Translations under genes and position numbers: made by a program
The notes under the pieces: model-generated
Seen by the model: the letters and a program-made list of their open reading frames with translations, nothing else
The model's database searches: none
Told to the model about the DNA's origin: nothing
Assembly (NCBI GenBank): GCA_947452765.1
Contig: CANGDR010000001.1
Coordinates: forward strand, 194,657 to 258,656
Source: Actinomycetota bacterium
GTDB taxonomy: Bacteria; Actinomycetota; Actinomycetes; S36-B12; UBA5976
Direction of reading: 5' to 3'
DNA: 64,000 nucleotides
Part shown: piece after piece, positions 2,064-31,578 of the stretch
Layout: every line of letters starts with the position of its first letter
How positions within the stretch are numbered: the first letter of the stretch is position 1

Positions 2064-2086
2064 TATTCCCACTTCCGAGTAAGTAT

Positions 2087-5629: not shown

Positions 5630-5638
5630 CTCAAACTC

Positions 5639-9327: not shown

Positions 9328-9477
9328 GAGCGACCTTCCGAGGGGCGAATTCGATAGTTGCGCATAGTGCAACTAAGTGCAAATGACGCAACACTTCAAT
9401 CGTTCCGTTTCTGTGCAAAATCGTCAAGCGATTTAGTCAAATAGTCGGGAACTTGCTCAACTAAAATCCTGCAGTAG

Positions 9478-10512: not shown

Positions 10513-10581
10513 CCTTTTTCCCTCCGAGAGAGTGACCATCGACCTGATGATCAATCTGTCTCACTTGCGTGAGGCAGAAAC

Positions 10582-15048: not shown

Positions 15049-15059
15049 GACAGAAAACC

Positions 15060-18997: not shown

Positions 18998-19208
18998 GTC
19001 CGGCTCCTGGCTCGTGGGTCACCTAATTAGGTAACGGCTCTAGTTACTCTGCCAAAGACTTGGGCAAATTAGTTGCCAAATCACTTGACGAATGGCTATG
19101 ACAATACCGTACTATGTGGAACATAGGTTCCAGATTATGAAAAATTATTTGGGGCTTCGAAGGTAAAAGAAAGTGCAGTTATTTCACTGTCTATATAAAG
19201 GAGGCGAG

Positions 19209-19964
19209 ATGGAAGAAAAGCCAGTTACTGGAACCCAATCCATTGATCGCGCCTGCGACCTATTAATTCGCGTTTTAAACAGTGACGATCCCCAGACCTT
19301 GAGCGAACTAGTTTCAGTAACTGGCTTGGCGAAGGGAACTACGGCAAGAATTCTTAGCGCTTTAGAGCGATCTGGCTTATTGGGCCGTAGCCCGATCGGC
19401 GGGTTTGAAGCTGGACCAGTTCTTAATCAGTTCGCAGTTCGAGGTGGCGCTTACACCGCACTAATTGGATCTTTGACTCCAGCTATGGAACGAATTGCCG
19501 ACATTACCCACGAAACAGTGAGTTTGGCGGTAACTGGGCACAACGGCATCGACAACATTGCGCAAGTCGAAGGCTCATATTTATTAGGAAGTCGCAACTG
19601 GGTTGGCGAAAGTGTCCCGGCTCACTGTTCAGCAGCTGGAAAAGTTTTGATTGCATTTGGAGCCGCGTCTGCGCCCGCCACGTTAGTGCCACGCACAGTC
19701 GAGACGATCACAGATTTTGCGGTACTAGATGCCCAGATCCGACGGGCGCACGAAGTTGGATTCGCAGTAATTCGAAATGAACTTGAACAAGGTTTGGTTT
19801 CGATCTCAATTCCAGTATTAGGGGATAATGGGAAAGCGATTGCTGCTTTGTCAGTTAGTGGCCCGGCTGAAAGAATTACCCCTGGCGATGAAATTCACAT
19901 CGCACAATTAATGCGTCGCGAGCTAAGCCAATTTCACGGCACACAACAAGAAGGAGCGGCATGA
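19209..19964 (+). CDS. IclR-family transcriptional regulator (second copy)
   Basis: The protein has wHTH and IclR effector domains. The start is taken at ATG 19209 behind an AGGAGG RBS; the ORF-track start is 19173. Confidence 0.85.
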   Translation: MEEKPVTGTQSIDRACDLLIRVLNSDDPQTLSELVSVTGLAKGTTARILSALERSGLLGRSPIGGFEAGPVLNQFAVRGGAYTALIGSLTPAMERIADITHETVSLAVTGHNGIDNIAQVEGSYLLGSRNWVGESVPAHCSAAGKVLIAFGAASAPATLVPRTVETITDFAVLDAQIRRAHEVGFAVIRNELEQGLVSISIPVLGDNGKAIAALSVSGPAERITPGDEIHIAQLMRRELSQFHGTQQEGAA

Positions 19965-20617
19965 CACCCGACGAAATTCTGACGGAACTGTACGAACGAA
20001 CCATGGAAGGTAATGCTCCTCGGGTACTTGAGCTAACCAAAATGGGACTCGAACTCGACATGACTCCGGATTCGATCTTGTTCGAGGCCCTGATTCCTTC
20101 CTTAGAAGAAGTTGGTGCCCGGTTCGAGCGGGGTGACTACTTCGTTCCTGAAATGCTTATTGCCGGTCGCGCGATGAGTGGCGCATTGGATGTCCTGCGC
20201 CCGCTCCTTGCTGATACTGGCGCCGAAACAGTTGGAACGTTCCTAATGGGAACTGTCAAGGGCGATGTGCATGACATTGGCAAGAACTTGGTGAACATCA
20301 TGCTCGAAGGTGCCGGCTTCCAAGTTATCGACCTTGGCGTACAAACTCCGCCTGAAAAATTCATTGATGCAATTAAGGAACACCAACCAGATGTTGTTGG
20401 TATGTCTGCATTCCTAACTACAACTATGCCGATGTTCAAGGTGAACATTCACGAAATCACCAAGGCTGGTATGCGCGACGACGTAATTATCATGGTCGGC
20501 GGTGCTCCGGTTACCCAGGAATACGCAGACGTAGTTGGCGCAGATGGTTATGCCGCCGATGCCTCCACTGCCGTTCGTAAAGCTAAGGAACTAATCGCAA
20601 TTAAGCGTGCTAAGTAA
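19961..20617 (+). CDS. Cobalamin-binding corrinoid protein (B12-binding_2 cap plus Rossmann B12 domain), MtgC/MtbC-like
   Basis: The 218 aa protein carries the DxHxxG base-off/His-on motif as GDVHDIGKN, followed by MSAFLTTTM and GGAPV. It has an ATGA overlap with iclR. Confidence 0.88.
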   Translation: MTPDEILTELYERTMEGNAPRVLELTKMGLELDMTPDSILFEALIPSLEEVGARFERGDYFVPEMLIAGRAMSGALDVLRPLLADTGAETVGTFLMGTVKGDVHDIGKNLVNIMLEGAGFQVIDLGVQTPPEKFIDAIKEHQPDVVGMSAFLTTTMPMFKVNIHEITKAGMRDDVIIMVGGAPVTQEYADVVGADGYAADASTAVRKAKELIAIKRAK

Positions 20618-20625
20618 CAAACTTC

Positions 20626-21009
20626 ATGACCACTTTCATTGCAACCGTAGAACACTTAGTCAAGGGACCTGTTTGGGGCTGCCAAGACTGTGGGCAATGC
20701 GTACTTCATTCGACCGGGATGACTTGTCCGATGAATTGCCCAAAGACTTTGCGTAATGGTCCTTGTGGCGGCGTGCGTGAAAACGGTAACTGTGAAGTAA
20801 AACCAGAAATGCAATGTGTTTGGTTGAAGGCGTATGACCGTACCGAGAACTGGCCACTGCCCAAGACTTGGAAAGCTGAATACAACCACCTAAGACCACC
20901 GGTTGATAATCGGCTCAAGGGAACTTCATCGTGGAAAAACTTTTTTACAAAGCGGGATCGCTGGACTCCAGCGGGCTGGGCTAAGTCCACCGACGAGGCT
21001 GGGCACTGA
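20626..21009 (+). CDS. Methylene-THF reductase C-terminal-domain protein (MetV-like, Cys-rich)
   Basis: The 127 aa protein has the Cys cluster CQDCGQCVLHSTGMTCPMNCPKTLRNGPCGG, characteristic of the small MetV partner of MetF in acetogens. Confidence 0.75.
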   Translation: MTTFIATVEHLVKGPVWGCQDCGQCVLHSTGMTCPMNCPKTLRNGPCGGVRENGNCEVKPEMQCVWLKAYDRTENWPLPKTWKAEYNHLRPPVDNRLKGTSSWKNFFTKRDRWTPAGWAKSTDEAGH

Positions 21010-21920
21010 TGTCAACGCTGGAACATAAGTTAACCAACACAACTGAAATGGTGTTCACTGCCGAATTTCATTCACTCGATGGAAACGGATTAGAAAAAGC
21101 TAAGAAGTATGCCGATCGCTTCCAAGGTTGGTTTGATGGGGTAAACGCAACCGACAATACGGCCGCACATGCACACGCCTCCAATGTGGCAACTGCAATT
21201 GCGATTAAGCAATTAGGTCTTGAGCCGATTATGCAAATTGTTTGCCGAGATAAAAATCGTTTGGCGCAGCAAGCAGACATCATGGGTGCTTCGATGTTTG
21301 GCGTAGAAAACTTTGTGGCACTTACTGGCGACGATGTAACTGCTGGTGATGAACCAGAAGCTCGTCGGGTATTTGATCTAGATGGCCCACAACTCGTTCG
21401 CCTCATGAGCACGCTCAAGCACGGCGAGTACATGTCGGGTCGAAAGATTGACCCAGCCCCACAGATGTTTATTGGAGCGGTAGAAAACCCAGCAGCGCCG
21501 CCATTTGAATACCGGGTTGAGCGCGTAGCAAAGAAATATGCAGCAGGCGCAAAGTTTCTGCAACTTCAGATTTGCTATCACCAAGACCGATTAGAGAAGT
21601 TTTGTGCTGGTGTAAAAAGCGCTGGATTGGCAGGCAAGATCGCAATCATTCCCACCGTGGTTTTAGTAAAGGGCCCCCGACCATTGCACTTTATGCATAA
21701 TTCGGTGCCAGGTATCGACGTTCCTGAAGATCAAATTGCCCGCGTGGAAAAGGCAGCTGATCCATCCGAGGCTGCCTACCTACAAACCCTCGAATTTGCC
21801 CGACACGCGCTGGACCAGCCAGGCGTGCGAGGATTGCACATAACGGATTTTAGAAATGATGAAACCTTGGAACGTCTCATGTCTGACCTGGGCCGGGTTC
21901 GCCAAGCGGTAACTACCTAA
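21009..21920 (+). CDS. metF: Methylenetetrahydrofolate reductase (MetF-like TIM barrel)
   Basis: The 303 aa MTHFR-family protein has a TGATG junction with the MetV-like gene. Confidence 0.8.
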   Translation: MSTLEHKLTNTTEMVFTAEFHSLDGNGLEKAKKYADRFQGWFDGVNATDNTAAHAHASNVATAIAIKQLGLEPIMQIVCRDKNRLAQQADIMGASMFGVENFVALTGDDVTAGDEPEARRVFDLDGPQLVRLMSTLKHGEYMSGRKIDPAPQMFIGAVENPAAPPFEYRVERVAKKYAAGAKFLQLQICYHQDRLEKFCAGVKSAGLAGKIAIIPTVVLVKGPRPLHFMHNSVPGIDVPEDQIARVEKAADPSEAAYLQTLEFARHALDQPGVRGLHITDFRNDETLERLMSDLGRVRQAVTT

Positions 21921-21950
21921 AAGAAGAAATACCTAATAGAAGGAAGCACG

Positions 21951-22802
21951 ATGCATACAGTAGTAAGTTCTGCCACCAAGACCGTTACGATCGGCCACGA
22001 TCAGCCGTTTGTGATTATTGGCGAGCGCCTTAACCCAACTGGTCGCAAACTCTTCCAAGAAAAGCTTCGGGCAGACGATCTTTCAACCATCGAAAAAGAT
22101 GTAGCAGACCAGGTCGCTGGCGGGTGCGACATGTTGGACGTAAACATGGGCGTGCCATTAACTGATGAACCAGCATTGCTTGCCAAAGCAGTCCAGCTAG
22201 TTCAATCTCTAACTGACTTACCAATCTGTATTGACTCTTCGGTTATCGAAGCCCTTGATGCAGGTCTGGCAGTCTATGAAGGTAAAGCTCTGGTTAACTC
22301 GATGACTGGCGAAGATGAGCGCATGGATTTAATCCTGCCGCTTGTTAAAAAGTACGACGCTGCAATTCTTGCGCTGCCAAATGATGAAATTGAAATTCCA
22401 ATGCTCGCCAAAGATCGAATGGTGATCGTTGAAAAGATTGTGCGTCGCGTTGAAAAAGAAGGCATTCCACTGGAAAACCTTTTAATCGATCCGTTAGCTA
22501 TGCCTGTTGGCGCCGATCCGGAAAACGTCAAGAATACTTTGGAAACTATTTACCAGATCAAAGAGAAGTACGGCTTAAACATGTCGCTGGGTGCTTCGAA
22601 CGTTTCGTTCGGTTTACCTAACCGTCACATCCTTAATGCAGCATTTATGCCGATGGCTATGGCGATGGGACTAACTTCGGCAATCATGGATGGCCGTACC
22701 CCAGAAGTCGTGCAAGCCGTTCGTGCCGCTGATCTCTTGCTTGGCCTAGACCAGTGGGGCGCTAACTGGATTACCCAGTTCCGCGCATCAAAAGAAGCAT
22801 AA
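21951..22802 (+). CDS. Methyltetrahydrofolate:corrinoid methyltransferase (pterin-binding domain, MtgA/AcsE-like)
   Basis: The 283 aa protein has a pterin-binding barrel (IIGERLNPTGRK, MLDVNMG, GASNVSFGLPNR). Confidence 0.8.
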   Translation: MHTVVSSATKTVTIGHDQPFVIIGERLNPTGRKLFQEKLRADDLSTIEKDVADQVAGGCDMLDVNMGVPLTDEPALLAKAVQLVQSLTDLPICIDSSVIEALDAGLAVYEGKALVNSMTGEDERMDLILPLVKKYDAAILALPNDEIEIPMLAKDRMVIVEKIVRRVEKEGIPLENLLIDPLAMPVGADPENVKNTLETIYQIKEKYGLNMSLGASNVSFGLPNRHILNAAFMPMAMAMGLTSAIMDGRTPEVVQAVRAADLLLGLDQWGANWITQFRASKEA

Positions 22803-22833
22803 GTATTCCTAAGGCCTACCGAAAGTTAGCCAA

Positions 22834-24702
22834 GTGTCAAAAGATGTAACCGACTCGACCGAATCCACAGTCAGTGGACTCGGCCGAGTTAATCTGCAAT
22901 TCACGCCTAGTGGAACTGAAGTTCGGGTACCGCCCGGCGTAACAGTTTTTGATGCAGCATCTTGGAATGGTTTAGCGATTGACTCAACTTGCGGTGGCCA
23001 TGGAACTTGTAAGAAGTGCAAGATCCAGGTTGTCGAAGGTGAAGTTCCAGTTTCGCGATTAGACATTCGTGCATTCACACCTGAGCAACTAAAAGATGGC
23101 TGGCGCCTGGCATGTGTGGCTCGGGCAAACGGAAATCTTAAAGTCGATGTCCCACCACTCGCTACTCGGCCAAAAGCTGCAACAGTGGGAGTGGGCCGCC
23201 AAGTTATTCTGCGCCCAGCAGTGCAAAAGCGTTATGTCGAACTTGTAGAACCAACTTTGCATGACCAACGTCCTGATATTGATCGCATCCGCGATGCCAT
23301 GGACGACTTAGAGTTCGAAGCAGACCTATCAGTGCTGAAAACCTTGCCAACTATCATGCGCAAAAGCGATTTCAAGGTAACTGCCGTAGTAGTAAACGAA
23401 GCATTGATTGCAGTTGAGGCAGGGGATACCACTGCTGAAAACTTTGCAATTGCAATCGACCTAGGAACCACAACAGTGGTAGCAACACTGTTGGATCTTG
23501 GCACTGGAACGCCGATGGCTGTTAAGTCAATGCTAAACAAGCAGCAACCATTTGGTGCTGACGTTATCTCGCGGATCTCGGCCACGATGATGGATCCATT
23601 AGCTGCAGGACTAATGCAAACTGCAGGCTTGGCCACCATTAACGAACTAATTGCTGAAGTGTGTACCGAAGCAAAGGTATCGGCTAACCAGGTTTACGAA
23701 ATCGCAATTGCGGGAAATGCCACGATGGTTGAGATCTTGCTTGGCGTTGATCCAGAGCCAGTCGGTGTTGCACCATTTATTACTGCTGCCCAGAAGTGGC
23801 CAACATTTACTGCAGCCGAAGTCGGATTAGAAATGTTGCCGAGTGCTCGCGTCTTCCTATTCCCAGCCTTTGGAGCTTATGTAGGCGGCGACATCGTTGC
23901 AGGTGTGTTGGCAACTGGAATGGATCGCGATAAGCGAGTCCGCCTTCTAATTGACGTCGGTACAAACTGTGAAATTGTTCTTTCTAGTGGTGACACAATT
24001 TTGACGACAGCGGCCCCGGCTGGACCTGCCTTCGAAGCAGCTTCGATTGCCTGCGGAATGCGAGCAGCTGATGGTGCAATTGAAGTTGTCCAAGTTACCG
24101 ATGAAGGAATCAAATTAGGCGTTATCGGCGATGCAGAACCGATTGGAATTTGTGGCTCTGGCTTAGTAGATGCCGTTTACGTATTGCATCAAGCAGGATT
24201 AATTGACGATTCTGGTCGCTTCGCTACCGATGAACAAGCCGCAGTTATCGCACCACATATTTCGGATCGGTTGATTACTCGCGAAGCAGGTGATCGAGCG
24301 TTCGTGTTGTACAGCAAGGATGGCGAAGTAGTTGTCCACTTATCTCAGCGGGATGTGCGGGAACTTCAGTTTGCGAAGGCTTCGATCGCTACTGGGTGGC
24401 GACTACTCCTTGAAGAGCAAGGCTTAACCGATGATGATGTTCAACAAGTTCTGCTTGCCGGGTCCTTTGGTTCCTATTTGTCACCAAAGTCAGCAATTGG
24501 AATTGGCTTAGTGCCAAAGCTTCCGGTTTTGCGAATTGTGAGTGCCGGAAACGTAGCAGGCGAGGGCGCCAAAATGGTCCTGCTCTCCAGCACTGAACGA
24601 AGCGGCGCGACAACTTTGCTTGATGAAGTTGATTACGTAGAACTTTCTGATCGCCCAGACTTTAACGACAAGTTTTTCTTGGAGCTGGCGCTTCCATCAT
24701 GA
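22834..24702 (+). CDS. Corrinoid reductive activase (RamA/RACo-like: N-terminal 2Fe-2S ferredoxin plus ASKHA ATPase domain)
   Basis: The 622 aa protein has a plant-type ferredoxin motif CGGHGTCKKCKI. A DUF4445/ASKHA body follows (AIDLGTTTV, DVGTNCE, GICGSG). The start is GTG. Confidence 0.8.
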   Translation: MSKDVTDSTESTVSGLGRVNLQFTPSGTEVRVPPGVTVFDAASWNGLAIDSTCGGHGTCKKCKIQVVEGEVPVSRLDIRAFTPEQLKDGWRLACVARANGNLKVDVPPLATRPKAATVGVGRQVILRPAVQKRYVELVEPTLHDQRPDIDRIRDAMDDLEFEADLSVLKTLPTIMRKSDFKVTAVVVNEALIAVEAGDTTAENFAIAIDLGTTTVVATLLDLGTGTPMAVKSMLNKQQPFGADVISRISATMMDPLAAGLMQTAGLATINELIAEVCTEAKVSANQVYEIAIAGNATMVEILLGVDPEPVGVAPFITAAQKWPTFTAAEVGLEMLPSARVFLFPAFGAYVGGDIVAGVLATGMDRDKRVRLLIDVGTNCEIVLSSGDTILTTAAPAGPAFEAASIACGMRAADGAIEVVQVTDEGIKLGVIGDAEPIGICGSGLVDAVYVLHQAGLIDDSGRFATDEQAAVIAPHISDRLITREAGDRAFVLYSKDGEVVVHLSQRDVRELQFAKASIATGWRLLLEEQGLTDDDVQQVLLAGSFGSYLSPKSAIGIGLVPKLPVLRIVSAGNVAGEGAKMVLLSSTERSGATTLLDEVDYVELSDRPDFNDKFFLELALPS

Positions 24703-25289
24703 GCCTGGCTGTGATTGCATGTGGCGCGCTTTCGGCCCACGTTCACGAGATTGCGGATCGCAATCATCTGGAGCTACATGTTGAACCAATCAATCCGCTC
24801 TTGCACAATCGTCCCGAAGGAATCGCACCAGCCGTAGAAGAACTAATCCTGGAACTCCAGCCAAATTATGATCACATTGCTATTGCATATGCAGATTGCG
24901 GCACCTACGGGGCACTCGATGTAGTTTGCGAGAAGTATCAAGTTTCCCGACTGGCGGGCGATCATTGCTACGACGTATTTGCAACTGCCGAAAAAATGAA
25001 AGCCGAATTCGAAAAGGTTCCGGGCACCTACGTGCTAACGGATTACTTAGTTAAAAGTTTTCGCCGGAGCGTAATGAACGAAATGGGCCTAGATCGTTAT
25101 CCAGAATTACGCGATGACTATTTCCATGCCTATAAGAGAATTCTCTGGCTAGCCCAGCATCAAACCCCTGAACTTGAGGAAGCGGCCAAGGATGCAGCGT
25201 CCTTAATTGATTTACCGCTAGAAATCATTAATGTGGGAGATAAGCACTTAGAGGAACAGTTAATGGTTTTGATCGGGAGCACGAAATGA
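24699..25289 (+). CDS. DUF1638-domain protein (unknown function, recurrently linked to corrinoid methyltransferase systems)
   Basis: The 196 aa protein is recognised by family recollection of its sequence (IACGALSAHV, YADCGTYGALD). It has ATGA overlaps on both sides, with the activase and with fdsG. Confidence 0.65.
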   Translation: MSLAVIACGALSAHVHEIADRNHLELHVEPINPLLHNRPEGIAPAVEELILELQPNYDHIAIAYADCGTYGALDVVCEKYQVSRLAGDHCYDVFATAEKMKAEFEKVPGTYVLTDYLVKSFRRSVMNEMGLDRYPELRDDYFHAYKRILWLAQHQTPELEEAAKDAASLIDLPLEIINVGDKHLEEQLMVLIGSTK

Positions 25290-25747
25290 GCAATTACTCC
25301 GAAGAATCCATACTTAACTATTTAGGACCTTACAAAGGTGATACCTCAACTATCTTGAGATCGCTGCAATTAATCCAAGAACTATTAGGTTATGTGCCGG
25401 ACAGCGCACTTGATTTAGTTGCCAAAAACAGCGGTGTCTCGCGCGCTGAGGTCTATGGCGTATTTACTTTCTATAGTGATTTTCGCTCGACACCGCCGGC
25501 AAAAGCCGTTGTTAAGGTGTGCGTAGCCGAAGCCTGCCAAGCATCCGGAAATGCCGAATTGATATCGGGTCTCCATGACCACGGGTATGACATCCATAAC
25601 GGCAGTGTTAAAGATGACATTCAAATGGAGCAAACTTTCTGCTTAGGCAACTGCGCCCTAGGACCGTCGGTCATGGTAAATGGGGCTCCAATGGGCCGGG
25701 CAACCTGCGACAAAGTTTTAGCTGCAGCAAAGGCAGCATCGGTATGA
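25286..25747 (+). CDS. fdsG: Formate dehydrogenase gamma subunit (NuoE-like 2Fe-2S)
   Basis: The 153 aa protein has a thioredoxin-like 2Fe-2S fold with C..C....C..C spacing (VCVAEACQ, FCLGNCALGP). Confidence 0.8.
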   Translation: MSNYSEESILNYLGPYKGDTSTILRSLQLIQELLGYVPDSALDLVAKNSGVSRAEVYGVFTFYSDFRSTPPAKAVVKVCVAEACQASGNAELISGLHDHGYDIHNGSVKDDIQMEQTFCLGNCALGPSVMVNGAPMGRATCDKVLAAAKAASV

Positions 25748-27288
25748 CAAAAGTATTCATCCCTCGGGATTCCGCAGCGCTATCTGTCGGAGCCGATGAA
25801 GTTGCTGCGAAAATTATTAAAATCGCAGCCAAGCAAGGGCTAGATGTGACGGTTGTTAGAACTGGCTCGCGCGGCATGTTATTTCTAGAGCCACTTATGG
25901 AGGTTGAAACTGCTGCTGGTCGGATTGGGTACGCGAATGTAACTCCAGAAATGGTCGAAGATCTACTTGCTGCAGGTGCATTAAGTGGCGCATCCCATGC
26001 GTCAACCATCGGCCAAGTTGAAAGTCACGAATACTTCGCCCGCCAAAACCGAATCACTTTCGCCCGGGTTGGAATCATAGATCCAATTTCGATAACTGAT
26101 TATGAAGCACATGGCGGGTTAGCTGGCTTAAGAAATGCTCTTGCGAAAACACCGGAATCTATTGTCGAAGAAGTTACCGAATCTGGACTTCGCGGTCGCG
26201 GCGGAGCAGGTTTTCCAGCTGGAATAAAATGGAAGACCGTTTTACTGGCAACCTCAGATCAAAAATACATTTGCTGCAATGCGGATGAAGGCGACAGCGG
26301 AACATTTGCAGATCGCATGCTGATGGAGGGTGATCCATTCACCTTGATAGAAGGCATGATTATTGCTGGCATAGCCGTTGGTGCGACAAAAGGTTTGATT
26401 TATGTCCGATCCGAATACCCACATGCGATTTCAATTTTTAACGAAGCAATTGCGGTTGCTAATTCTTCTGGATTATTAGGTTCATCTGTCCTTGGTTCGG
26501 CTCATGAATTCAATCTAGAAGTTCGAGTTGGCGCCGGATCATATGTTTGTGGCGAAGAAACTGCGATGTTGGAAAGTTTGGAAGGTAAGCGTGGCATGGT
26601 TCGCGCCAAGCCACCGATTCCTGCGTTAGTTGGCTTGTTCGGTAAGCCAACTGTCATTAACAATGTGATGACGCTGGCTGCTGTGCCAATGATTTTGGCG
26701 CAAGGGGCTGCTGCCTATCAATCGCTAGGGCATGAGCGATCGCGAGGAACTCAAGTTTTCCAACTTGCCGGCAACATAAAGCAAGGCGGAATTGTGGAGC
26801 TTGCATTCGGAACCACGCTCGGCGAACTAGTTGATGGCTTTGGCGGCGGCACATTGTCCGGCCGCCCAGTAAAGACAGTTCAAATCGGCGGCCCGCTTGG
26901 GGCATACCTAGGTAAGTCAGACTGGAATGTCCCAATGGCTTATGAGTCCTTGGCTGAGGTCGGTGGCATGCTTGGTCACGGCGGCATTGTGGTCTTTGAT
27001 GACACAGTAAATATGGCCAAACAAGCCCGTTTTGCTATGGAATTCTGTGCCGAGGAATCCTGCGGCAAGTGCACGCCATGTCGAATTGGATCAACTCGCG
27101 GGGTCGAAGTCATTGACCGAATCGTTGCCGGCGAGGAACAATCAAAGAACCTAGAACTGCTTTCAGATCTTTGCGATGTGATGGCTGATGGTTCGCTGTG
27201 TGCCATGGGTGGATTAACTCCACTACCAGTACGAAGCGCCTTGAAGCTGTTTCCTGCAGACTTCGGAATCTCGGTAGGAGTTAAGTAA
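25744..27288 (+). CDS. fdsB: Formate dehydrogenase beta subunit (NuoF-like NAD/FMN/4Fe-4S)
   Basis: The 514 aa protein has GLRGRGGAGFPAG (FMN site), CNADEGDSGTF and ESCGKCTPCR (4Fe-4S). Confidence 0.88.
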   Translation: MTKVFIPRDSAALSVGADEVAAKIIKIAAKQGLDVTVVRTGSRGMLFLEPLMEVETAAGRIGYANVTPEMVEDLLAAGALSGASHASTIGQVESHEYFARQNRITFARVGIIDPISITDYEAHGGLAGLRNALAKTPESIVEEVTESGLRGRGGAGFPAGIKWKTVLLATSDQKYICCNADEGDSGTFADRMLMEGDPFTLIEGMIIAGIAVGATKGLIYVRSEYPHAISIFNEAIAVANSSGLLGSSVLGSAHEFNLEVRVGAGSYVCGEETAMLESLEGKRGMVRAKPPIPALVGLFGKPTVINNVMTLAAVPMILAQGAAAYQSLGHERSRGTQVFQLAGNIKQGGIVELAFGTTLGELVDGFGGGTLSGRPVKTVQIGGPLGAYLGKSDWNVPMAYESLAEVGGMLGHGGIVVFDDTVNMAKQARFAMEFCAEESCGKCTPCRIGSTRGVEVIDRIVAGEEQSKNLELLSDLCDVMADGSLCAMGGLTPLPVRSALKLFPADFGISVGVK

Positions 27289-30137
27289 TGACATTGCTTG
27301 CAGATCCACGCGGCACGATGCCGATTCGTTCCGGCATTGGCGAACCTGATTATGGAACTCCTAAGTCCAGCTCCCAAGTAATGGTTACGGTCACCATCGA
27401 CGGTGAGGCACATGTAGTCCCTGAAGGTACTTCAGTAATGCGAGCCGCTGGCGAAGCAGGCTGTTCAATACCAAAACTTTGTGCGACCGATTCGCTCCAG
27501 CCATTTGGCTCATGTCGCATGTGCATCGTCGAAATCGATGGACGAAAGGGAACTCCAGCTTCTTGCACAACTCCGGTGGAGGAGGGAATGGTAGTTCGCA
27601 CCCAGACCGAGAAAGTTGCCAAACTTCGCAAAGGTGTGATGGAACTTTATATTTCCGACCATCCATTGGACTGCTTAACGTGTTCAGCTAATGGCGATTG
27701 CGAACTGCAAGACATGGCGGGTGTGGCTGGGCTGCGTGAGGTCCGTTATGGCATGGACGGCAAGAATCACCTCGATGCACCGACCGATTCATCTAATCCA
27801 TATTTTTCATTCGATGAGAGCAAATGCATTGTCTGTAATCGCTGCGTTCGCGCGTGTGATGAAGTACAAGGAACTCTCGCGCTAACCATTGAAGGCCGTG
27901 GCTTTAATTCGAAAGTAAGTCCAGGTGGGTTGAATTTCCTTTCAAGTGAATGTGTTTCGTGTGGCGCCTGTGTTCAGGCTTGTCCGACCGCAACTTTGCA
28001 AGAAAAGAGTGTCATTGATTTAGGTATGCCAACTCGCACCGTGCAAACCACTTGTGCATATTGCGGTGTTGGTTGCTCATTTAATGCCGAACTTCGTGGC
28101 GATGAACTTGTCCGTATGGTGCCTGCTAAAACTGGTGGCGCCAACGAAGGTCATAGTTGTGTGAAAGGCCGCTTTGCTTGGGGTTATGCCTCGCACTCAG
28201 AACGAATCACCAAGCCAATGATGCGCGAAAAAATTACTGATGAATGGCGTGAAGTTTCGTGGGATGAAGCAATTGAGTTTACTGCTTCCAAGCTAAAGGA
28301 AATCCAACTGCAATACGGTGACAACAGCATTGGTGGAATTTCGTCATCAAGATGCACCAATGAGGAAATCTTTGTTGTCCAAAAAATGGTTAGAGCCGCC
28401 TTTGGAAATAACAATATTGATACGTGTGCTCGCGTTTGCCACTCGCCAACTGGATATGGTTTGAGCACTACATACGGCACTTCGGCTGGCACGCAAGATT
28501 TTAAGTCGGTGGCAAAGTCAGATGTGATAGTTGTGATTGGCGCAAATCCAACAGATGCCCACCCAGTGTTTGCTTCTCGCATGAAGCGCCGGATTCGTGA
28601 AGGCGCACAACTGATCATTATTGATCCGCGCAAGATTGATCTGGTGGAATCCGCACACATTAAGGCTGACTACCACCTGCAATTGCAGCCAGGCACAAAT
28701 GTTGCTGTGATAAACGCAATCGCACATGTAATTGCAACCGAGGGTTTGATTGACGAAGTGTTCGTTTCAGAGCGCTGCGATCCAGGGCCATTTAATCGCT
28801 GGCGAAAATTTATCGAACTTCCAGAAAACAGCCCAGAAGTTGTTGAGTCCCAGTCTGGCGTTCCAGCCGAAACTATTCGCCAGGCAGCTCGGCTGTATGC
28901 AGCTGGAAATAACGCTGCTATCTACTACGGCCTTGGTGTAACTGAGCACTCGCAAGGTTCAACCATGGTTATGGGTATGGCAAACCTTGCAATGGCTACT
29001 GGAAATATCGGCCGCGAAGGTGTGGGTATCAACCCATTGCGTGGCCAAAATAATGTGCAGGGTGCCTGTGACATGGGATCGTTCCCGCATGAACTTTCTG
29101 GTTACCGACATGTTTCTGATAACGCCGTGCGTGAGCAATTTGAAGCGCTTTGGGATGTAAAGCTGCTACCGGATCCTGGCATGAGAATTCCAAATATGTT
29201 CGACAATGCGATCTCCGGAGAATTCCGTGGATTGTTTGTGCATGGCGAAGACATCGCGCAATCCGATCCAAACACCAAGCACGTTGAAAAGTCCCTTAAG
29301 TCGATGGACTTAGTTGTCGTACAGGACCTATTCCTAAACGAAACCTCTAAGTTTGCACACGTATTCCTGCCTGGCACTTCCTTCCTGGAAAAGGATGGAA
29401 CGTTCACCAATGCGGAACGTCGTATCAATCGCGTGCGACCAGTTATGGCGGCTAAGAACGGCAAGCAAGAGTGGCAAATCATCTGTGAAATTGCACAAGC
29501 AATGGGTTATGACATGCATTACGAAAATTCTGCTCAAATCATGGATGAGATTGCGCAAATTACACCGACATTCAAAGGTATTAGTTTTGCAATGCTCGAT
29601 GAAGTTGGCAGCGTGCAGTGGCCATGTAATGACGCCGCTCCTGACGGTACGCCAATCATGCACGTAGATGGTTTTGTTCGGGGACAAGGACAGTTCATGG
29701 AGACACCGTTTGTCCCAACCGAAGAACGGTCAAATCGTAAGTTCCCGCTATTGCTGACAACTGGACGTATCTTGACTCAATACAACGTTGGCGCCCAGAC
29801 TCGCAGAACAGCAAATGTAACCTGGCATCCCGAAGATGTTTTGGAGATTCACGAGTCAGATGCAGCGTTACGTGGCATTTCAGATGGTCAGAAGATCGCG
29901 GTATCAAGTCGAATTGGCGAAACAATTTTAACTGCAGAAGTAAGTGATCGAGTGCCTGCTGGAGTGGTCCACACCACGTTCCACCATCCAACTAGTGGTG
30001 CAAATGTAATCACGACGGAGTTTTCAGACTGGGCAACTAACTGTCCGGAATTCAAAGTGACTGCAGTGGAAATCCGCCCAGCTGACTCGAGCGCAGCGCC
30101 AACAAATACCCTCGAATCAGTATTGACCAAGGCTTAA
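27288..30137 (+). CDS. fdsA: Formate dehydrogenase alpha subunit (molybdopterin, Cys active site)
   Basis: The 949 aa protein has N-terminal 2Fe-2S/4Fe-4S motifs (CRMCIVE, CIVCNRCVRAC, CVSCGACVQACP, CAYCGVGC). The Mo-bisPGD domain has TCARVCHSPTG where Sec enzymes carry U, so this is a Cys-type enzyme. Confidence 0.92.
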   Translation: MTLLADPRGTMPIRSGIGEPDYGTPKSSSQVMVTVTIDGEAHVVPEGTSVMRAAGEAGCSIPKLCATDSLQPFGSCRMCIVEIDGRKGTPASCTTPVEEGMVVRTQTEKVAKLRKGVMELYISDHPLDCLTCSANGDCELQDMAGVAGLREVRYGMDGKNHLDAPTDSSNPYFSFDESKCIVCNRCVRACDEVQGTLALTIEGRGFNSKVSPGGLNFLSSECVSCGACVQACPTATLQEKSVIDLGMPTRTVQTTCAYCGVGCSFNAELRGDELVRMVPAKTGGANEGHSCVKGRFAWGYASHSERITKPMMREKITDEWREVSWDEAIEFTASKLKEIQLQYGDNSIGGISSSRCTNEEIFVVQKMVRAAFGNNNIDTCARVCHSPTGYGLSTTYGTSAGTQDFKSVAKSDVIVVIGANPTDAHPVFASRMKRRIREGAQLIIIDPRKIDLVESAHIKADYHLQLQPGTNVAVINAIAHVIATEGLIDEVFVSERCDPGPFNRWRKFIELPENSPEVVESQSGVPAETIRQAARLYAAGNNAAIYYGLGVTEHSQGSTMVMGMANLAMATGNIGREGVGINPLRGQNNVQGACDMGSFPHELSGYRHVSDNAVREQFEALWDVKLLPDPGMRIPNMFDNAISGEFRGLFVHGEDIAQSDPNTKHVEKSLKSMDLVVVQDLFLNETSKFAHVFLPGTSFLEKDGTFTNAERRINRVRPVMAAKNGKQEWQIICEIAQAMGYDMHYENSAQIMDEIAQITPTFKGISFAMLDEVGSVQWPCNDAAPDGTPIMHVDGFVRGQGQFMETPFVPTEERSNRKFPLLLTTGRILTQYNVGAQTRRTANVTWHPEDVLEIHESDAALRGISDGQKIAVSSRIGETILTAEVSDRVPAGVVHTTFHHPTSGANVITTEFSDWATNCPEFKVTAVEIRPADSSAAPTNTLESVLTKA

Positions 30138-30139
30138 CT

Positions 30140-30355
30140 GTGGATATTAAGATTCTCACTCACATGGTTGAACAAATTGAAAAGAATATCCCAGCTCACG
30201 AAGAGCAGTACTTGCGAATCTCTGAGCATTTAATTAAGTTTTGGACGCCACAAATGCGTACTGACTTATTTCAGGAAGTAAAAGAAAATCGACAGAACTA
30301 CAGCGAAGTTGTAGGACAAGTTGTCGACGATATGCGAGCAAAAGCTAAGGCTTAG
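30140..30355 (+). CDS. fdsD: Formate dehydrogenase delta subunit
   Basis: The 71 aa protein has a GTG start 2 nt after the fdsA stop and an FdsD-like HLIKFWTPQMR motif. Confidence 0.7.
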   Translation: MDIKILTHMVEQIEKNIPAHEEQYLRISEHLIKFWTPQMRTDLFQEVKENRQNYSEVVGQVVDDMRAKAKA

Positions 30356-31539
30356 TTAACTCGCCAAGGTAGCGGCAGGATTCGCACCTTTGTTCCTGCG
30401 GGATTTTCACCTTCGCTTATTACCGCAAGTGCTTTTGCATTTGCCAGCCCGCGCAACATAGCCGAGCCTCGATATTCCGTTGGCACCGCAACCCCACCTT
30501 GGAATGCAATTGGGATAACTCGGGTTCGGTCGGCTGGAAAAGACTTTTCAAGTCCTACGGAAACAAGTTCAGGTAGCTCTTCATTCAATAGCCCGCGGAT
30601 AACTGGTGCAACCACCGTAAGGAAACTAACTAGGGCAGCAAGTGGATTACCAGGTAACCCTGCAACAAATTGCCCGGAAGGAAGTTTTGCCAAAATTGTC
30701 GGATGGCCTGGGCGCATGCGAATTTCATCAACAATATAGGTTGCACGCAAATTTACAAGCGCACTACGAAGATAGTCGTTGTCACCATGTGCGGTGCCAC
30801 CTGTTGTGATAATAATTTGGGATTGCGAATTCCTAATCGAGGACGTTAACTCAGACTCACTGTCCTTGCAGTTAATCGACGATGCAATTTCCGCCCCAAG
30901 ATATTGGGCCCAGGTACCAACTTGAATTGTTAGCGAGTCTCGAATTTTTCCTGGTCCAATTTCGCCAGAGGAAACTAGTTCATCACCGGTCACGATAACT
31001 GAAACGCTTGGCCGAATCTGAACCGAGACTTGATCAAATCCAGAACTTGCAGCTAAGCCGGCTGCAGCAGGGGTAACTAAGTTGCCCGCGGCGGCGATGA
31101 TTTCACCAGGCTCGGCCTCATCACCAGGTGGGCGAATGTGTTGGCCAGGGGTGAAGGAATTCTTACTTGCCACATCGCCTTCAAATAACGTTGCCATTTC
31201 TTGTGGAATTACAAAGGAGCAGTGTGGAGGTAGGTGAGCGCCAGTGCTGACTTTCAGGGCGCAACCTGCATCAAGGTAAGGCAAATAACTGCCAGCATGA
31301 AGTTCGCCAACGATCTTCCAGGGACCTGGACCGTAGACCGCGTAACCATCCATCATGGCGGTGTGTGCCGGAGGTAACGCAAGTTCGGCTATTAGATCTT
31401 GGCTGAGCACTCGGTTAATTGCTTCTGATAGTGGCAAAGTTTCAGACCCAACGCAGGCTGCGGCTTGGAAGCTCAATGAAACTGCTTCATCCCATTCCAC
31501 ATTATGGTGGTCCAGGCTGTGGTTTTCCCCTGCCGACAT
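30352..31539 (-). CDS. moeA: Molybdopterin molybdotransferase
   Basis: The 395 aa protein is MoeA-like (MDGYAV, TTGGTAHGDNDY). It converges on fdsD with a 4-nt overlap. Confidence 0.85.
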   Translation of the reverse strand: MSAGENHSLDHHNVEWDEAVSLSFQAAACVGSETLPLSEAINRVLSQDLIAELALPPAHTAMMDGYAVYGPGPWKIVGELHAGSYLPYLDAGCALKVSTGAHLPPHCSFVIPQEMATLFEGDVASKNSFTPGQHIRPPGDEAEPGEIIAAAGNLVTPAAAGLAASSGFDQVSVQIRPSVSVIVTGDELVSSGEIGPGKIRDSLTIQVGTWAQYLGAEIASSINCKDSESELTSSIRNSQSQIIITTGGTAHGDNDYLRSALVNLRATYIVDEIRMRPGHPTILAKLPSGQFVAGLPGNPLAALVSFLTVVAPVIRGLLNEELPELVSVGLEKSFPADRTRVIPIAFQGGVAVPTEYRGSAMLRGLANAKALAVISEGENPAGTKVRILPLPWRVN

Positions 31540-31578
31540 AGGAACAATCTATCGTTCACATGTCATGCTTATTACCTG

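What the first reader, a model, noticed from the sequence alone, without database searches (positions are those of the whole stretch)
19209..30355. Eleven-gene, stop/start-overlapped operon welding a corrinoid methyl-transfer module to an NAD-type Mo formate dehydrogenase
Seen in sequence: eleven genes lie on one strand, in this order:
- iclR;
- corrinoid protein;
- metV-like;
- metF-like;
- methyl-THF:corrinoid methyltransferase;
- RamA/RACo-like activase;
- DUF1638;
- fdsG, fdsB, fdsA and fdsD.

The junctions are ATGA at 19961, 24699, 25286 and 25744, TGATG at 21007 and TAATG at 27286. The remaining gaps are 2-31 nt and I see no terminator. This implies co-transcription and translational coupling.

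Established knowledge: these parts are normally discussed separately. One is the acetogen/methanogen methyltransferase system; the other is the FdsGBACD-type FDH of aerobic proteobacteria.

Inference: the operon encodes a reverse methyl-branch oxidation line (CH3-corrinoid to CH3-THF to CH2-THF, then formate to CO2) as one regulated unit. The NuoE/NuoF-like FdsGB diaphorase may also supply electrons to the 2Fe-2S domain of the activase.
Basis: partly seen in the sequence, partly recalled or inferred. Interest (0 to 1): 0.8.

Follow-up and report, generated by a model that had tools for sequence, protein, structure and literature searches.

The report
Glycine-betaine methyl oxidation operon with formate dehydrogenase
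The eleven genes form a real, tightly packed operon in a freshwater actinobacterium: one arm of a 33-kb choline/glycine-betaine breakdown island that strips a methyl group with vitamin B12 and burns it to CO2, a pathway already described in marine bacteria and here arranged with the final enzyme, formate dehydrogenase, in the same operon.

Summary

**What it is.** The operon is the + arm of a ~33-kb choline/glycine-betaine (GB) catabolic island in a Nanopelagicales-related freshwater actinobacterial MAG.
- Its core is IclR, MtgC-like corrinoid protein, MetV, MetF, methyl-THF:corrinoid methyltransferase, RACo-type activase and DUF1638.
- This is the cobalamin-dependent GB demethylation module described for aerobic marine Proteobacteria in 2025.
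- The same core, including MetVF, occurs in Paracoccus and Sinorhizobium replicons without fds.

**Missing steps lie outside the operon.**
- The MtgB-like methyltransferase and formate-THF ligase are on the divergent arm.
- FolD, DMG dehydrogenase, sarcosine oxidase, BetA, BADH and a betaine ABC transporter lie further left.
- MoeA, MobA and FdhD lie to the right.

**The fds fusion is specific to one clade.**
- Fused with conserved overlaps: 13 of 13 informative species-level genomes with DUF1638 identity of at least 65%.
- Convergent, in a separate Fhs-fdsGBA operon: 11 sister genomes.
- Absent within the 2-10 kb available downstream: 47 other Actinomycetota.

**Regulation.** One conserved IclR-type palindrome (19117-19132) sits behind one promoter-like site.

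**Interpretation: partly supported.** The reverse methyl-branch reading holds. The proposed FdsGB-to-activase electron supply has no support.

**Verdict.** A new member of a known kind, of moderate interest.

The parts
1..1227 (-). Choline dehydrogenase (BetA-like GMC oxidoreductase). The ORF runs off the left end of the window.
   Evidence: an open frame of 409 aa beginning ...[20 protein letters not shown]. Relatives carry GMC_oxred genes in the same islands. Assigned by motif and context; not scanned against Pfam here.
1215..2072 (-). FolD, methylene-THF dehydrogenase/cyclohydrolase (CH2-THF to 10-formyl-THF).
   Evidence: THF_DHG_CYH_C at 3.7e-58 and THF_DHG_CYH at 1.3e-36.
2087..6880 (-). 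Heterotetrameric sarcosine oxidase: soxB 5639-6880, soxD 5351-5629, soxA 2685-5354, soxG 2087-2719.
   Evidence: DAO; GCV_T + SO_alpha_A3 + Fer2_4; SoxG; a 92-aa CPYCG... ORF in the soxD position. The soxD ORF itself was not scanned against Pfam.
6904..9372 (-). Dimethylglycine dehydrogenase/oxidase (DAO-FAO_M-GCV_T).
9529..13781 (-). Betaine/choline ABC transporter: OpuAC binding protein 9529-10554, fused double ProW permease 10582-12522, ProV ATPase 12522-13781. The true ProV start is probably internal.
   Evidence: OpuAC at 8.4e-36; TIGR03416 at 367.9 bits against a cutoff of 363; TIGR01186 at 358.7 bits against a cutoff of 326.6.
13543..15048 (-). Betaine-aldehyde dehydrogenase-like aldehyde dehydrogenase.
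   Evidence: Aldedh at 3.9e-161. The best NCBIfam match is TIGR01804 BADH at 584 bits, below its cutoff of 669.
15060..15839 (-). Second IclR-family regulator.
15894..17561 (-). Formate-tetrahydrofolate ligase (Fhs). Its start overlaps the end of the MttB-family gene by 4 nt.
   Evidence: FTHFS at 4.4e-265; NF010030 at 909 bits against a cutoff of 652.
17558..18997 (-). Non-pyrrolysine MttB-superfamily methyltransferase. It is the MtgB-like glycine betaine:corrinoid methyltransferase and is divergent from the operon.
   Evidence: MTTB at 3.1e-188, full length, with no internal stop; 4YYC, 2QNE and 9YCE ('glycine betaine methyltransferase') at 1e-131 to 1e-119, against 1e-38 for true TMA MttB.
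19085..19132 (+). Promoter-like TTGACG (19085-19090) - 19 nt - TACTAT (19110-19115), followed by the perfect palindrome TGGAACATAGGTTCCA (19117-19132). This is the putative IclR operator.
   Evidence: The palindrome TGGAAC-N4-GTTCCA occurs once in the window without mismatch. It occurs exactly once in each of 48 related loci; in the 12 loci read it lies in the mttB/iclR intergenic region, and its positions in the rest match that spot.
19209..19964 (+). IclR-family regulator, the first gene of the operon.
   Evidence: Shine-Dalgarno site AAGGAGG upstream.
19961..20617 (+). Corrinoid (cobalamin-binding) protein, MtgC-like.
   Evidence: the best NCBIfam match is NF047996 MtgC at 206 bits, below its cutoff of 370. 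DxHxxG motif GDVHDIG.
20626..21009 (+). MetV, the Cys-rich small subunit of the MetVF-type methylene-THF reductase.
   Evidence: PF12225 at 2.4e-25; eight Cys, including CxxCxxC.
21009..21920 (+). MetF, methylene-THF reductase. It is inferred to run in the oxidative direction.
   Evidence: PF02219 at 1.4e-25.
21951..22802 (+). Methyl-corrinoid:THF methyltransferase (MtgA/MtgD-like, Pterin_bind).
   Evidence: NF005719 at 306 bits against a cutoff of 259.
22834..24702 (+). RACo/RamA-type ATP-dependent reductive activase with an N-terminal 2Fe-2S ferredoxin domain.
   Evidence: 3ZYY (RACo) at 1e-97 over residues 21-616.
24699..25289 (+). DUF1638 protein, a genetically linked partner of RamA-like activases. 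Its biochemical role is unknown.
   Evidence: invariant C8, H36, C67, H89 and C90. AlphaFold2 pLDDT 94; no solved relative by sequence or fold. Literature: PMC5764234.
25286..25747 (+). FdsG, the NuoE-like 2Fe-2S subunit.
25744..27288 (+). FdsB, the NuoF-like FMN/NAD subunit.
   Evidence: 6VW7_B at 3e-218 and 6TG9_B at 8e-192.
27288..30137 (+). FdsA, the Mo-bisPGD catalytic subunit, with Cys (not Sec) in the active-site stretch CARVCHSPTGYG.
   Evidence: TIGR01591 at 906 bits; 9WXB_B at 1420 bits and 6TG9_A at 1398 bits.
30140..30355 (+). FdsD, with an alternative start at ATG 30164. Its 3' end overlaps the convergent moeA by 4 nt.
   Evidence: PF11390 at 38.1 bits against a cutoff of 27..
30352..33211 (.). 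Molybdenum-cofactor and FDH maturation genes: moeA 30352-31539 (-), mobA-DUF6457 31504-32388 (+), fdhD (equivalent to fdsC) 32381-33211 (+).
   Evidence: NF001943 FdhD at 270.5 bits against a cutoff of 269. These genes are conserved next to fdsD in the fused clade.

Best explanation
**What it is.** The eleven genes are one IclR-controlled operon. It forms the + arm of a ~33-kb choline/glycine-betaine catabolic island in a freshwater Nanopelagicales-related actinobacterium.

**Inferred pathway, from family assignments and context**
1. Choline is taken up or oxidised to glycine betaine (BetA, BADH, OpuAC-ProWV).
2. The divergently encoded MtgB-like MttB-family enzyme moves one methyl from glycine betaine to Co(I) on the corrinoid protein.
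3. The Pterin_bind methyltransferase passes the methyl to THF.
4. MetVF oxidises CH3-THF to CH2-THF.
5. FolD (1215-2072) makes 10-formyl-THF.
6. Fhs, on the divergent arm, releases formate and makes ATP.
7. FdsGBAD oxidises formate to CO2 and makes NADH.

DMG dehydrogenase and sarcosine oxidase feed the other two methyl groups into the same THF pool, so FDH is the common exit.

RACo (ATP-dependent, 2Fe-2S) and DUF1638 return accidentally oxidised Co(II) to Co(I).

**Regulation (inferred).** One promoter-like site with an IclR-type palindrome immediately behind it lies in the mttB/iclR intergenic region and probably controls the + arm.

**Origin of the fusion (inferred).** The fds genes reached the end of the corrinoid operon by a local rearrangement within one clade. 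A sister clade keeps them in a separate convergent Fhs-fdsGBA operon.

**Shown here:** gene identities, junctions, conservation, operator conservation.

**Inferred:** substrate, direction of flux, co-transcription, repressor action.
For: **Identities**
- Family scans.
- Solved relatives:
  - MtgB-like against 2QNE, 9YCE and 4YYC.
  - FdsA and FdsB against 6TG9, 6VW7 and 9WXB.
  - FdsG.
  - RACo against 3ZYY.
- B12 motif DxHxxG in the corrinoid protein.
- Cys-rich MetV.

**Glycine-betaine context**
- BetA, BADH, OpuAC-ProWV, DMGDH and SoxBDAG lie in the window.
- The same genes recur in relatives.

**Operon**
- Exact overlaps are present in the window and conserved in 13 genomes.
- There is no excess of promoter-like or terminator-like sites.
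- There is no structure at the DUF1638/fdsG junction.

**Regulation**
- The palindrome TGGAAC-N4-GTTCCA occurs once per locus in 48 loci. In the 12 loci read it lies in the mttB/iclR spacer, and its positions in the other loci match that spot.
- That includes loci titled Actinophytocola.

**Conservation**
- Fused arrangement: 13 of 13 informative species-level genomes with DUF1638 identity of at least 65%.
- Convergent fds: 11 genomes.
- No fds within the available downstream sequence: 47 genomes.

**Literature**
- PMC12478193: aerobic MtgBCD with RamA, DUF1638 and MetF2, with C1-oxidation genes co-located.
Against: - There are no expression data, so co-transcription through 25286 is inferred from geometry only.
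- The promoter scan uses an E. coli-type consensus and is weak evidence for Actinobacteria.
- Glycine betaine as the substrate is inferred from context and from similarity to solved MtgB-type proteins, not from an assay. MttB-family members use several different quaternary amines.
- The electron acceptor of MetVF in the oxidative direction is unknown. Oxidation of CH3-THF with NAD+ is thermodynamically unfavourable (established knowledge).
- MtgC, BADH, FdsG and FdsB score below their NCBIfam equivalog cutoffs.
Confidence: 0.78

Rival explanations
1. The fusion exists because the FdsGB diaphorase, or FDH as a whole, physically delivers electrons from formate or NADH to the 2Fe-2S domain of the RACo activase, perhaps through DUF1638. 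Corrinoid reactivation would then be powered by the pathway's own end product.
For: - DUF1638 and fdsG overlap by 4-8 nt in all 13 fused genomes.
- RACo keeps an N-terminal 2Fe-2S domain whose physiological donor is unknown.
- DUF1638 has invariant Cys and His residues that could bind a metal.
- Formate is a low-potential donor (established knowledge).
Against: - RACo + DUF1638 with the same architecture occur without fds within the 2-10 kb available downstream in 47 of 71 informative loci. In 11 more, fds is a separate convergent operon.
- The same module in Paracoccus and Sinorhizobium has no fds nearby.
- In Phaeobacter and Ruegeria, the RamA-like protein and DUF1638 act at unlinked loci (PMC5764234, PMC12478193).
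- In another Nanopelagicaceae lineage, fdsGBA sits with FolD, PurU, BetA and FdhD and no corrinoid genes.
Confidence: 0.08
2. There are two transcription units. The corrinoid genes (19209-25289) and fdsGBAD (25286-30355) are adjacent but driven separately, from an internal promoter inside DUF1638 or RACo, so the 'one regulated unit' claim fails.
For: - In the sister clade, fds belongs to a different operon with Fhs, so it can be expressed independently.
- Actinobacterial promoters are poorly captured by the consensus scan used.
Against: - A 4-8 nt start/stop overlap at the junction is conserved in 13 genomes.
- There is no intergenic space, no terminator-like hairpin above chance, and no special structure.
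- There is only one operator-like palindrome per locus.
Confidence: 0.15
3. The corrinoid module is mainly a split methionine synthase, as in Phaeobacter and Ruegeria (MtgC + MtgD + a homocysteine-binding MtgE). On this reading its position next to C1-oxidation genes reflects methyl-THF supply, not glycine-betaine catabolism.
For: PMC12478193 and PMC5764234 show that the homologous MtgC/MtgD, RamA-like and DUF1638 proteins are required for methionine synthesis in Roseobacters.
Against: - No homocysteine S-methyltransferase domain protein was found among the window ORFs scanned.
- The module is divergently paired with an MtgB-like gene and embedded among BetA, BADH, ProVWX, DMGDH and Sox genes.
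- A dual role is not excluded, because the rest of the genome is not available.
Confidence: 0.07
4. The MttB-family enzyme uses a different methylated amine, such as proline betaine, carnitine, gamma-butyrobetaine or trimethylamine. On this reading the island is not specific for glycine betaine.
For: - MttB-superfamily members have diverse substrates (PMC12478193 discussion; PMC8604678, listed).
- No equivalog model was passed.
Against: - The best solved relatives are the glycine-betaine enzymes 2QNE and 9YCE, at 1e-120 against 1e-38 for TMA MttB.
- There is no pyrrolysine codon.
- Genes for making glycine betaine from choline and for degrading DMG and sarcosine flank it.
Confidence: 0.1

Closest known systems
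MtgBCD cobalamin-dependent glycine betaine demethylation system of aerobic bacteria (Ruegeria pomeroyi DSS-3, Phaeobacter inhibens, Sinorhizobium meliloti; Mausz et al. 2025, PMC12478193; Price et al. 2018, PMC5764234)
   Same: - The parts match: MttB-family MtgB, B12-binding MtgC, Pterin_bind methyl-THF methyltransferase, RamA/RACo-like activase, DUF1638, and a dedicated MetF paralogue for methyl-THF oxidation.
- That paper reports C1-oxidation and downstream demethylation genes as often co-located.
- Paracoccus and Sinorhizobium loci seen here have mttB <> B12-binding - DUF1638 - MetV - MetF - methyltransferase - ASKHA.
   Different: - The host is a freshwater actinobacterium. The paper covers Alpha-, Gamma- and Deltaproteobacteria and has no occurrence of 'actinobacter', 'freshwater' or 'formate'.
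- Gene order differs: DUF1638 is last, after RACo.
- An IclR gene heads the operon.
- fdsGBAD is fused to the end.
- No MtgE-like gene was found in the window.
MtgB/MtgC/MtgA of Desulfitobacterium hafniense (anaerobic glycine betaine:THF methyl transfer; structure 2QNE)
   Same: - The MttB-family protein aligns full length with 2QNE at 3e-120.
- It is the same three-component methyl transfer through a corrinoid protein with a RamA-type activase.
   Different: - Here the methyl group is inferred to be fully oxidised through FolD, Fhs and an NAD-linked FDH in an aerobe.
- It is not used in anaerobic respiration or acetogenesis.
FdsGBACD NAD+-dependent molybdenum formate dehydrogenase (Rhodobacter capsulatus 6TG9/6TGA; Cupriavidus necator FdsBG 6VW7)
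   Same: - FdsA scores 1398 bits to 6TG9_A, with the Cys-His active-site stretch conserved.
- FdsB scores 729 bits to 6VW7_B.
- FdsG matches FDH gamma subunits.
- FdsD passes the PF11390 threshold.
   Different: - The FdsC equivalent (FdhD) is not between fdsA and fdsD. It sits 2 kb downstream, after a convergent moeA and mobA.
- The operon has no promoter region of its own and continues from DUF1638.
MetVF-type methylene-THF reductase of acetogens (for example Acetobacterium woodii MetF-MetV-RnfC2; from my own knowledge, plus PMC10472528 listed)
   Same: A MetF (PF02219) is translationally coupled to a small Cys-rich MetV (PF12225).
   Different: - No RnfC2-like or Hdr-like partner is adjacent.
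- The host is presumably aerobic.
- The reaction is inferred to run oxidatively.
- MetV is short, at 127 aa.
THF-linked C1 oxidation of osmolyte methyl groups in SAR11 and Roseobacters (PMC3160333 and PMC4744692, listed; their content is from my own knowledge)
   Same: The logic is the same: methyl groups from glycine betaine, DMG and sarcosine enter the THF pool and leave through FolD, Fhs or PurU and FDH as CO2.
   Different: - Those organisms use BHMT or other first steps.
- Their genes are dispersed, not collected into a single operon with FDH.

Membership tests
MtgBCD-type cobalamin-dependent glycine betaine methyltransferase system | Non-pyrrolysine MttB-superfamily substrate:corrinoid methyltransferase | tested here: met
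   - PF06253 at 3.1e-188, full length, with an uninterrupted ORF.
- Closest solved proteins are 4YYC, 2QNE and 9YCE.
MtgBCD-type cobalamin-dependent glycine betaine methyltransferase system | Separate corrinoid protein with a B12-binding cap, a Rossmann domain and the DxHxxG motif | tested here: met
   - PF02607 + PF02310.
- GDVHDIG motif.
- NCBIfam MtgC models are the top hits but score below their cutoffs: 206 against 370.
MtgBCD-type cobalamin-dependent glycine betaine methyltransferase system | Methyl-corrinoid:THF methyltransferase (Pterin_bind) | tested here: met
   NF005719 at 306 bits against a cutoff of 259.
MtgBCD-type cobalamin-dependent glycine betaine methyltransferase system | RamA/RACo-type reductive activase plus a DUF1638 partner | tested here: met
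   - RACo domains, and 3ZYY at 1e-97.
- PF07796.
MtgBCD-type cobalamin-dependent glycine betaine methyltransferase system | Glycine betaine is the methyl donor (biochemical specificity) | not testable with these tools
   The only support is context (BetA, BADH, ProVWX, DMGDH, Sox) and similarity to solved glycine-betaine enzymes.
FdsGBACD NAD-dependent Mo formate dehydrogenase | FdsA with NuoG-like Fe-S domains, a Mo-bisPGD domain and a Cys ligand | tested here: met
   - TIGR01591 at 906 bits against a cutoff of 666.
- The alignment to 9WXB_B covers residues 21-937 and conserves CARVCHSPTGYG.
- 6TG9_A scores 1398 bits over residues 20-933.
FdsGBACD NAD-dependent Mo formate dehydrogenase | NuoF-like FdsB and NuoE-like FdsG diaphorase subunits | tested here: met
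   - 6VW7_B at 3e-218.
- FDH gamma chains are the top hits for FdsG.
- The NCBIfam FdsG equivalog cutoff is not reached: 129 against 198.
FdsGBACD NAD-dependent Mo formate dehydrogenase | Small FdsD subunit | tested here: met
   - PF11390 at 38.1 bits against a cutoff of 27.
- No PDB sequence match.
FdsGBACD NAD-dependent Mo formate dehydrogenase | FdsC/FdhD sulfurtransferase chaperone encoded within the operon | tested here: not met
   FdhD is present (NF001943 at 270.5 bits against a cutoff of 269) at 32381-33211. It lies in a separate mobA-fdhD unit beyond the convergent moeA. The function is available but the operon position differs.
MetVF-type methylene-THF reductase | MetF plus a Cys-rich MetV encoded together | tested here: met
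   - PF02219 and PF12225.
- TGATG overlap at the junction.
- Eight Cys in MetV.
MetVF-type methylene-THF reductase | A dedicated electron-transfer partner (RnfC2-like or HdrABC-MvhD-like) encoded adjacently | tested here: not met
   None was found among the ORFs scanned in the window. The only NuoF-like protein nearby is FdsB.
IclR-family regulated catabolic operon | An IclR regulator with HTH_IclR + IclR_C domains and a palindromic operator at the promoter | tested here: inconclusive
   - The domains are present.
- A conserved perfect palindrome lies next to a promoter-like site in 48 loci.
- Binding was not tested.

The most novel reading that the evidence does not exclude
In this actinobacterial clade the fusion would be functional, not just regulatory. 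The FdsGB iron-sulfur/flavin module, translationally coupled to DUF1638 and RACo, would act as a shared low-potential electron hub. It would use formate-derived electrons to re-reduce Co(II)-corrinoid through RACo and DUF1638. It might also accept electrons from MetVF, in the way RnfC2 serves MetVF in Acetobacterium. That would give DUF1638 its first biochemical role and identify the missing redox partners of aerobic corrinoid methyltransferase systems.
Probability: 0.08. Interest if true: 0.7.

Novelty: new member of a known kind. Interest (0 to 1): 0.35.

Why it matters
- **Ecology.** Nanopelagicales-type Actinobacteria are among the most abundant freshwater bacteria.
- **Gap in the literature.**
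  - A recent survey of the order noted FDH, Moco, FolD and Fhs genes in Planktophila. It linked them to generic C1 capacity or oxygen limitation.
  - It contains no mention of betaine or corrinoid proteins (PMC12817590).
- **What this locus suggests.**
  - FDH here looks like the exit of a B12-dependent choline/glycine-betaine demethylation pathway.
  - That pathway was described only in 2025, and only for marine Proteobacteria.
- **What follows.**
  - The pathway's range would extend to freshwater Actinomycetota.
  - These genome-streamlined cells would have a further cobalamin requirement.
  - The compact, single-locus, single-operator layout is convenient for heterologous reconstitution and for assigning a function to DUF1638.
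- **Limit.** It is not a new kind of system.

Tried and rejected
- **Promoter and terminator scan of 18500-33500.** Fewer sites than in shuffles, so it gives no support for internal signals. The E. coli-type consensus makes this weak evidence either way.
- **RNA folding across the DUF1638/fdsG junction.** z = +0.70, no attenuator.
- **Rfam scan of the whole window.** Only four tRNAs were found and no cobalamin riboswitch.
- **DUF1638 function.**
  - No PDB sequence hit.
  - The AlphaFold2 model is confident, at pLDDT 94.
  - Foldseek against PDB gave nothing below E 1e-3 or above TM 0.45.
  - No functional assignment was reached.
- **Second copy of the operator before fdsG or elsewhere in the island.** None was found with 0-1 mismatch in the island. 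The only 1-mismatch site, at 36914, is outside it.
- **Operator upstream of the sister clade's Fhs-fds operon.** That operon continues upstream into an ETF-alpha-like gene, and no convincing site was found.
- **Plasmid collection search.** It returned only alphaproteobacterial and Azoarcus modules without fds.
- **Considered and rejected.**
  - An acetogen-like Wood-Ljungdahl remnant. No CODH/ACS genes are present, and the context is aerobic catabolism.
  - A true TMA methyltransferase. There is no Pyl codon, and similarity to solved MttB is poor.

Full report
**1. Observation**

The window carries eleven consecutive + strand ORFs between 19209 and 30355.
- IclR.
- A B12-binding corrinoid protein.
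- MetV (PF12225).
- MetF (PF02219).
- A Pterin_bind methyl-THF:corrinoid methyltransferase (NF005719, above its cutoff).
- A RACo-type activase with an N-terminal 2Fe-2S domain.
- DUF1638.
- FdsG, FdsB, FdsA (TIGR01591, 906 bits) and FdsD (PF11390, above its cutoff).

Reading the junctions directly confirmed every claim:
- ATGA at 19961, 24699, 25286 and 25744.
- TGATG at 21007 and TAATG at 27286.
- Gaps of 8, 30, 31 and 2 nt elsewhere.

Two start-codon notes apply. FdsD may start at ATG 30164 instead, which would make that gap 26 nt. The IclR start at 19209 has a good Shine-Dalgarno site.

**2. Surroundings**

The operon is one arm of a much larger unit.

Divergent from it, on the - strand:
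- A non-pyrrolysine MttB-family methyltransferase (17558-18997).
- Formate-THF ligase (15894-17561), overlapping the MttB-family gene by 4 nt.
- A second IclR.
- A betaine-aldehyde dehydrogenase-like enzyme.
- A ProV / fused ProW / OpuAC betaine-choline ABC transporter.

Further left:
- DMG dehydrogenase (6904-9372).
- Sarcosine oxidase soxBDAG (2087-6880).
- FolD (1215-2072).
- A GMC choline dehydrogenase that runs off the window's left end.

To the right of fdsD:
- A convergent moeA that overlaps fdsD by 4 nt.
- mobA-DUF6457 and fdhD.

Bases 1-33211 therefore encode a complete route from choline to glycine plus three C1 units, and from C1-THF to CO2. The rest of the window holds tRNAs, amino-acid permeases, Clp and trigger factor, ValS and other unrelated genes.

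**3. Identity of the key proteins**

- **MttB-family protein.** It aligns full length with solved glycine-betaine-type members (4YYC, 2QNE, 9YCE 'glycine betaine methyltransferase') at 1e-131 to 1e-119. True trimethylamine MttB scores only 1e-38.
- **Corrinoid protein.** It has the DxHxxG motif.
- **RACo.** It matches Carboxydothermus RACo (3ZYY) over its full length at 1e-97.
- **FDH subunits.**
  - FdsA scores about 1400 bits to 9WXB_B and to 6TG9_A. The printed 9WXB_B alignment conserves a Cys-containing active-site stretch.
  - FdsB scores 729 bits to the 6VW7_B FdsB chain.
  - FdsG's top hits are FDH gamma chains.
- **MetV.** It is a 127-aa protein with eight cysteines.
- **DUF1638.**
  - It has invariant Cys and His residues across 17 homologues.
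  - Its AlphaFold2 model is confident, at pLDDT 94.
  - It has no solved relative by sequence or fold.

**4. Source organism**

- Identical or near-identical contigs come from freshwater metagenomes and from the MAG GCA_947450265.1.
- Close homologues are titled Candidatus Nanopelagicales, Actinomycetes or Actinomycetota MAGs.

**5. Conservation**

A scan of one genome per species with a DUF1638 profile returned 80 loci, all Actinomycetota. I scored them by tblastn with all 21 island proteins. Nine loci were truncated, leaving 71 informative.

| Arrangement | Loci | DUF1638 identity to the window |
|---|---|---|
| fdsG directly after DUF1638, same strand | 13 (all informative loci at this identity) | at least 65% |
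| Same corrinoid operon ends at DUF1638; fds convergent | 11 | 52-56% |
| No fds within the 2-10 kb available downstream | 47 | 52-59% |

Details by group:
- **Fused clade.**
  - The 4- or 8-nt overlap at the junction is kept, as are the other tight junctions.
  - In the loci long enough to show both flanks, the mttB-fhs-iclR2 arm and the moeA/mobA/fdhD tail are also kept.
- **Sister clade.**
  - Several of these MAGs are titled Ca. Planktophila.
  - About 200 nt after DUF1638 comes a convergent operon reading ...Fhs-FdsG-FdsB-FdsA. An ETF-alpha-like gene lies upstream of it.
- **No-fds group.**
  - This includes Pseudonocardia, Actinophytocola and soil MAGs.
  - They carry variable accessories such as PurU, FolD, BetA, ProVWX, DMGDH and Sox.

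Approaching from the FdsG side gave a consistent picture. A further Nanopelagicaceae lineage has fdhD-rpiB-fdsG-fdsB-fdsA(D-fused), with FolD, BetA and PurU nearby and no corrinoid genes within 10 kb.

Outside Actinobacteria, the Paracoccus methylovorus plasmid p1 and a Sinorhizobium meliloti replicon carry the gene order below. Neither has fds nearby.
- mttB <> B12-binding - DUF1638 - MetV - MetF - methyltransferase - ASKHA

Two conclusions follow:
- The conserved core is the corrinoid/MetVF/activase/DUF1638 module.
- The fds fusion is a real, inherited arrangement, but it is specific to one clade. An inversion of the fdsGBA block relative to the sister-clade layout would explain it (inference).

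**6. Regulation**

The 211-nt mttB/iclR spacer contains three elements in order:
- TTGACG (19085-19090).
- After 19 nt, TACTAT (19110-19115).
- Immediately after that, the perfect palindrome TGGAACATAGGTTCCA (19117-19132).

The consensus TGGAAC-N4-GTTCCA behaves as follows:
- It occurs once in the window without mismatch.
- It occurs exactly once in each of 48 related loci. In the 12 loci whose spacer I read it lies there, and its positions in the others match that spot. The 48 include the sister clade and loci titled Actinophytocola.
- No second copy precedes fdsG.

I read this as an IclR operator overlapping the start of the + operon (inference). There is no excess of promoter-like or terminator-like sites, no fold at the junction and no riboswitch.

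**7. Mechanism (inferred)**

1. MtgB-like enzyme: glycine betaine methyl to Co(I)-corrinoid protein.
2. Pterin_bind methyltransferase: methyl to THF, giving CH3-THF.
3. MetVF: CH3-THF to CH2-THF.
4. FolD: CH2-THF to 10-formyl-THF.
5. Fhs: formate plus ATP.
6. FdsGBAD: CO2 plus NADH.

DMGDH and Sox add the other two methyl groups at the CH2-THF level. RACo (ATP-driven) and DUF1638 repair Co(II). The weakest link is the unknown electron acceptor of MetVF in the oxidative direction.

**8. Comparison with what is known**

- **Mausz et al. 2025** (PMC12478193).
  - They showed genetically and by proteomics that aerobic Ruegeria uses MtgB/MtgC/MtgD, with RamA, DUF1638 and MetF2 induced, for glycine-betaine demethylation.
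  - They state that genes for cobalamin reactivation, C1 oxidation and later demethylations are often co-located, even in operons.
  - Their survey covers marine Proteobacteria. The text has no occurrence of 'formate', 'freshwater' or 'actinobacter'.
- **Price et al. 2018** (PMC5764234). [quoted passage not shown]
- **A 2025 Nanopelagicales paper** (PMC12817590).
  - It lists FDH, Moco, FolD and Fhs in abundant Planktophila.
  - It contains no mention of betaine or corrinoid proteins.

The locus is therefore a new member of a known system in an ecologically important phylum, with a distinctive operon layout.

**9. The FdsGB-to-activase idea**

- Nothing beyond adjacency supports it.
- The activase/DUF1638 pair keeps the same architecture whether fds is fused, convergent or absent.
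- It is not excluded. I give it about 8%.

**10. Verdict**

- Observation: confirmed.
- Interpretation: partly supported.
- Novelty: new member of a known kind.
- Interest: 0.35.

Noticed in passing
window 24699-25289, alignment A1: DUF1638 has invariant C8, H36, D66-C67-G68 and H89-C90-Y91-D92 across 17 homologues. Its AlphaFold2 model is confident (pLDDT 94) and has two alpha/beta subdomains, but no solved structural relative. This could be a metal or cofactor site in a protein whose role in B12 reactivation is still unknown.
   Followed up: partly
window 30352-30355: fdsD (+) and moeA (-) converge and overlap by 4 nt, leaving no room for a terminator. Read-through from the fds operon would be antisense to moeA.
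   Followed up: no
L090, L078, L046 and L094, about 10800-17500: In the sister (Planktophila-titled) clade, Fhs-FdsG-FdsB-FdsA form a convergent operon. It continues upstream into an ETF-alpha-like gene. ETF is the usual acceptor of DMG and sarcosine dehydrogenases.
   Followed up: partly
L099 and L100, 8657-15013: Another Nanopelagicaceae lineage has fdhD-rpiB-fdsG-fdsB and an FdsA with FdsD fused to its C-terminus (994 aa). A 2-oxoacid:ferredoxin oxidoreductase, BetA-like GMC oxidoreductase, FolD and PurU lie next to it.
   Followed up: no
window 20626-21009; L001, L009, L011: The MetV ORF was left uncalled by the gene callers on several otherwise identical or related contigs, although it hits PF12225 at 2.4e-25. 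Annotation-based surveys would therefore undercount MetV.
   Followed up: partly
window 12522-13781 and 13543-15048: The longest ProV ORF overlaps the BADH gene by 239 nt, so the true ProV start is probably internal. ProW (646 aa) is a fused double permease.
   Followed up: no
window 33347-33419 (-): A tRNA gene lies directly after fdhD at the right edge of the island. In relatives the genes beyond fdhD differ: RNase T here, and a trehalose-phosphate synthase in L008/L009. The edge of the island is therefore a synteny break.
   Followed up: no
window 31504-32388: MobA-like guanylyltransferase is fused to DUF6457. This fusion is conserved next to fdhD in all fused-clade loci.
   Followed up: no
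window 34270-49743: A loose cluster of amine-related genes: two amino-acid permeases, a PLP-dependent decarboxylase, a copper amine oxidase and a mycothiol-dependent Rv2466c-like reductase. The last is consistent with an actinobacterial host.
   Followed up: no
L098 (Sinorhizobium meliloti record CP090106.1): This record is labelled as plasmid pSymB but is 3.7 Mb long, so it looks like a chromosome-sized replicon that may be mislabelled in the collection.
   Followed up: no
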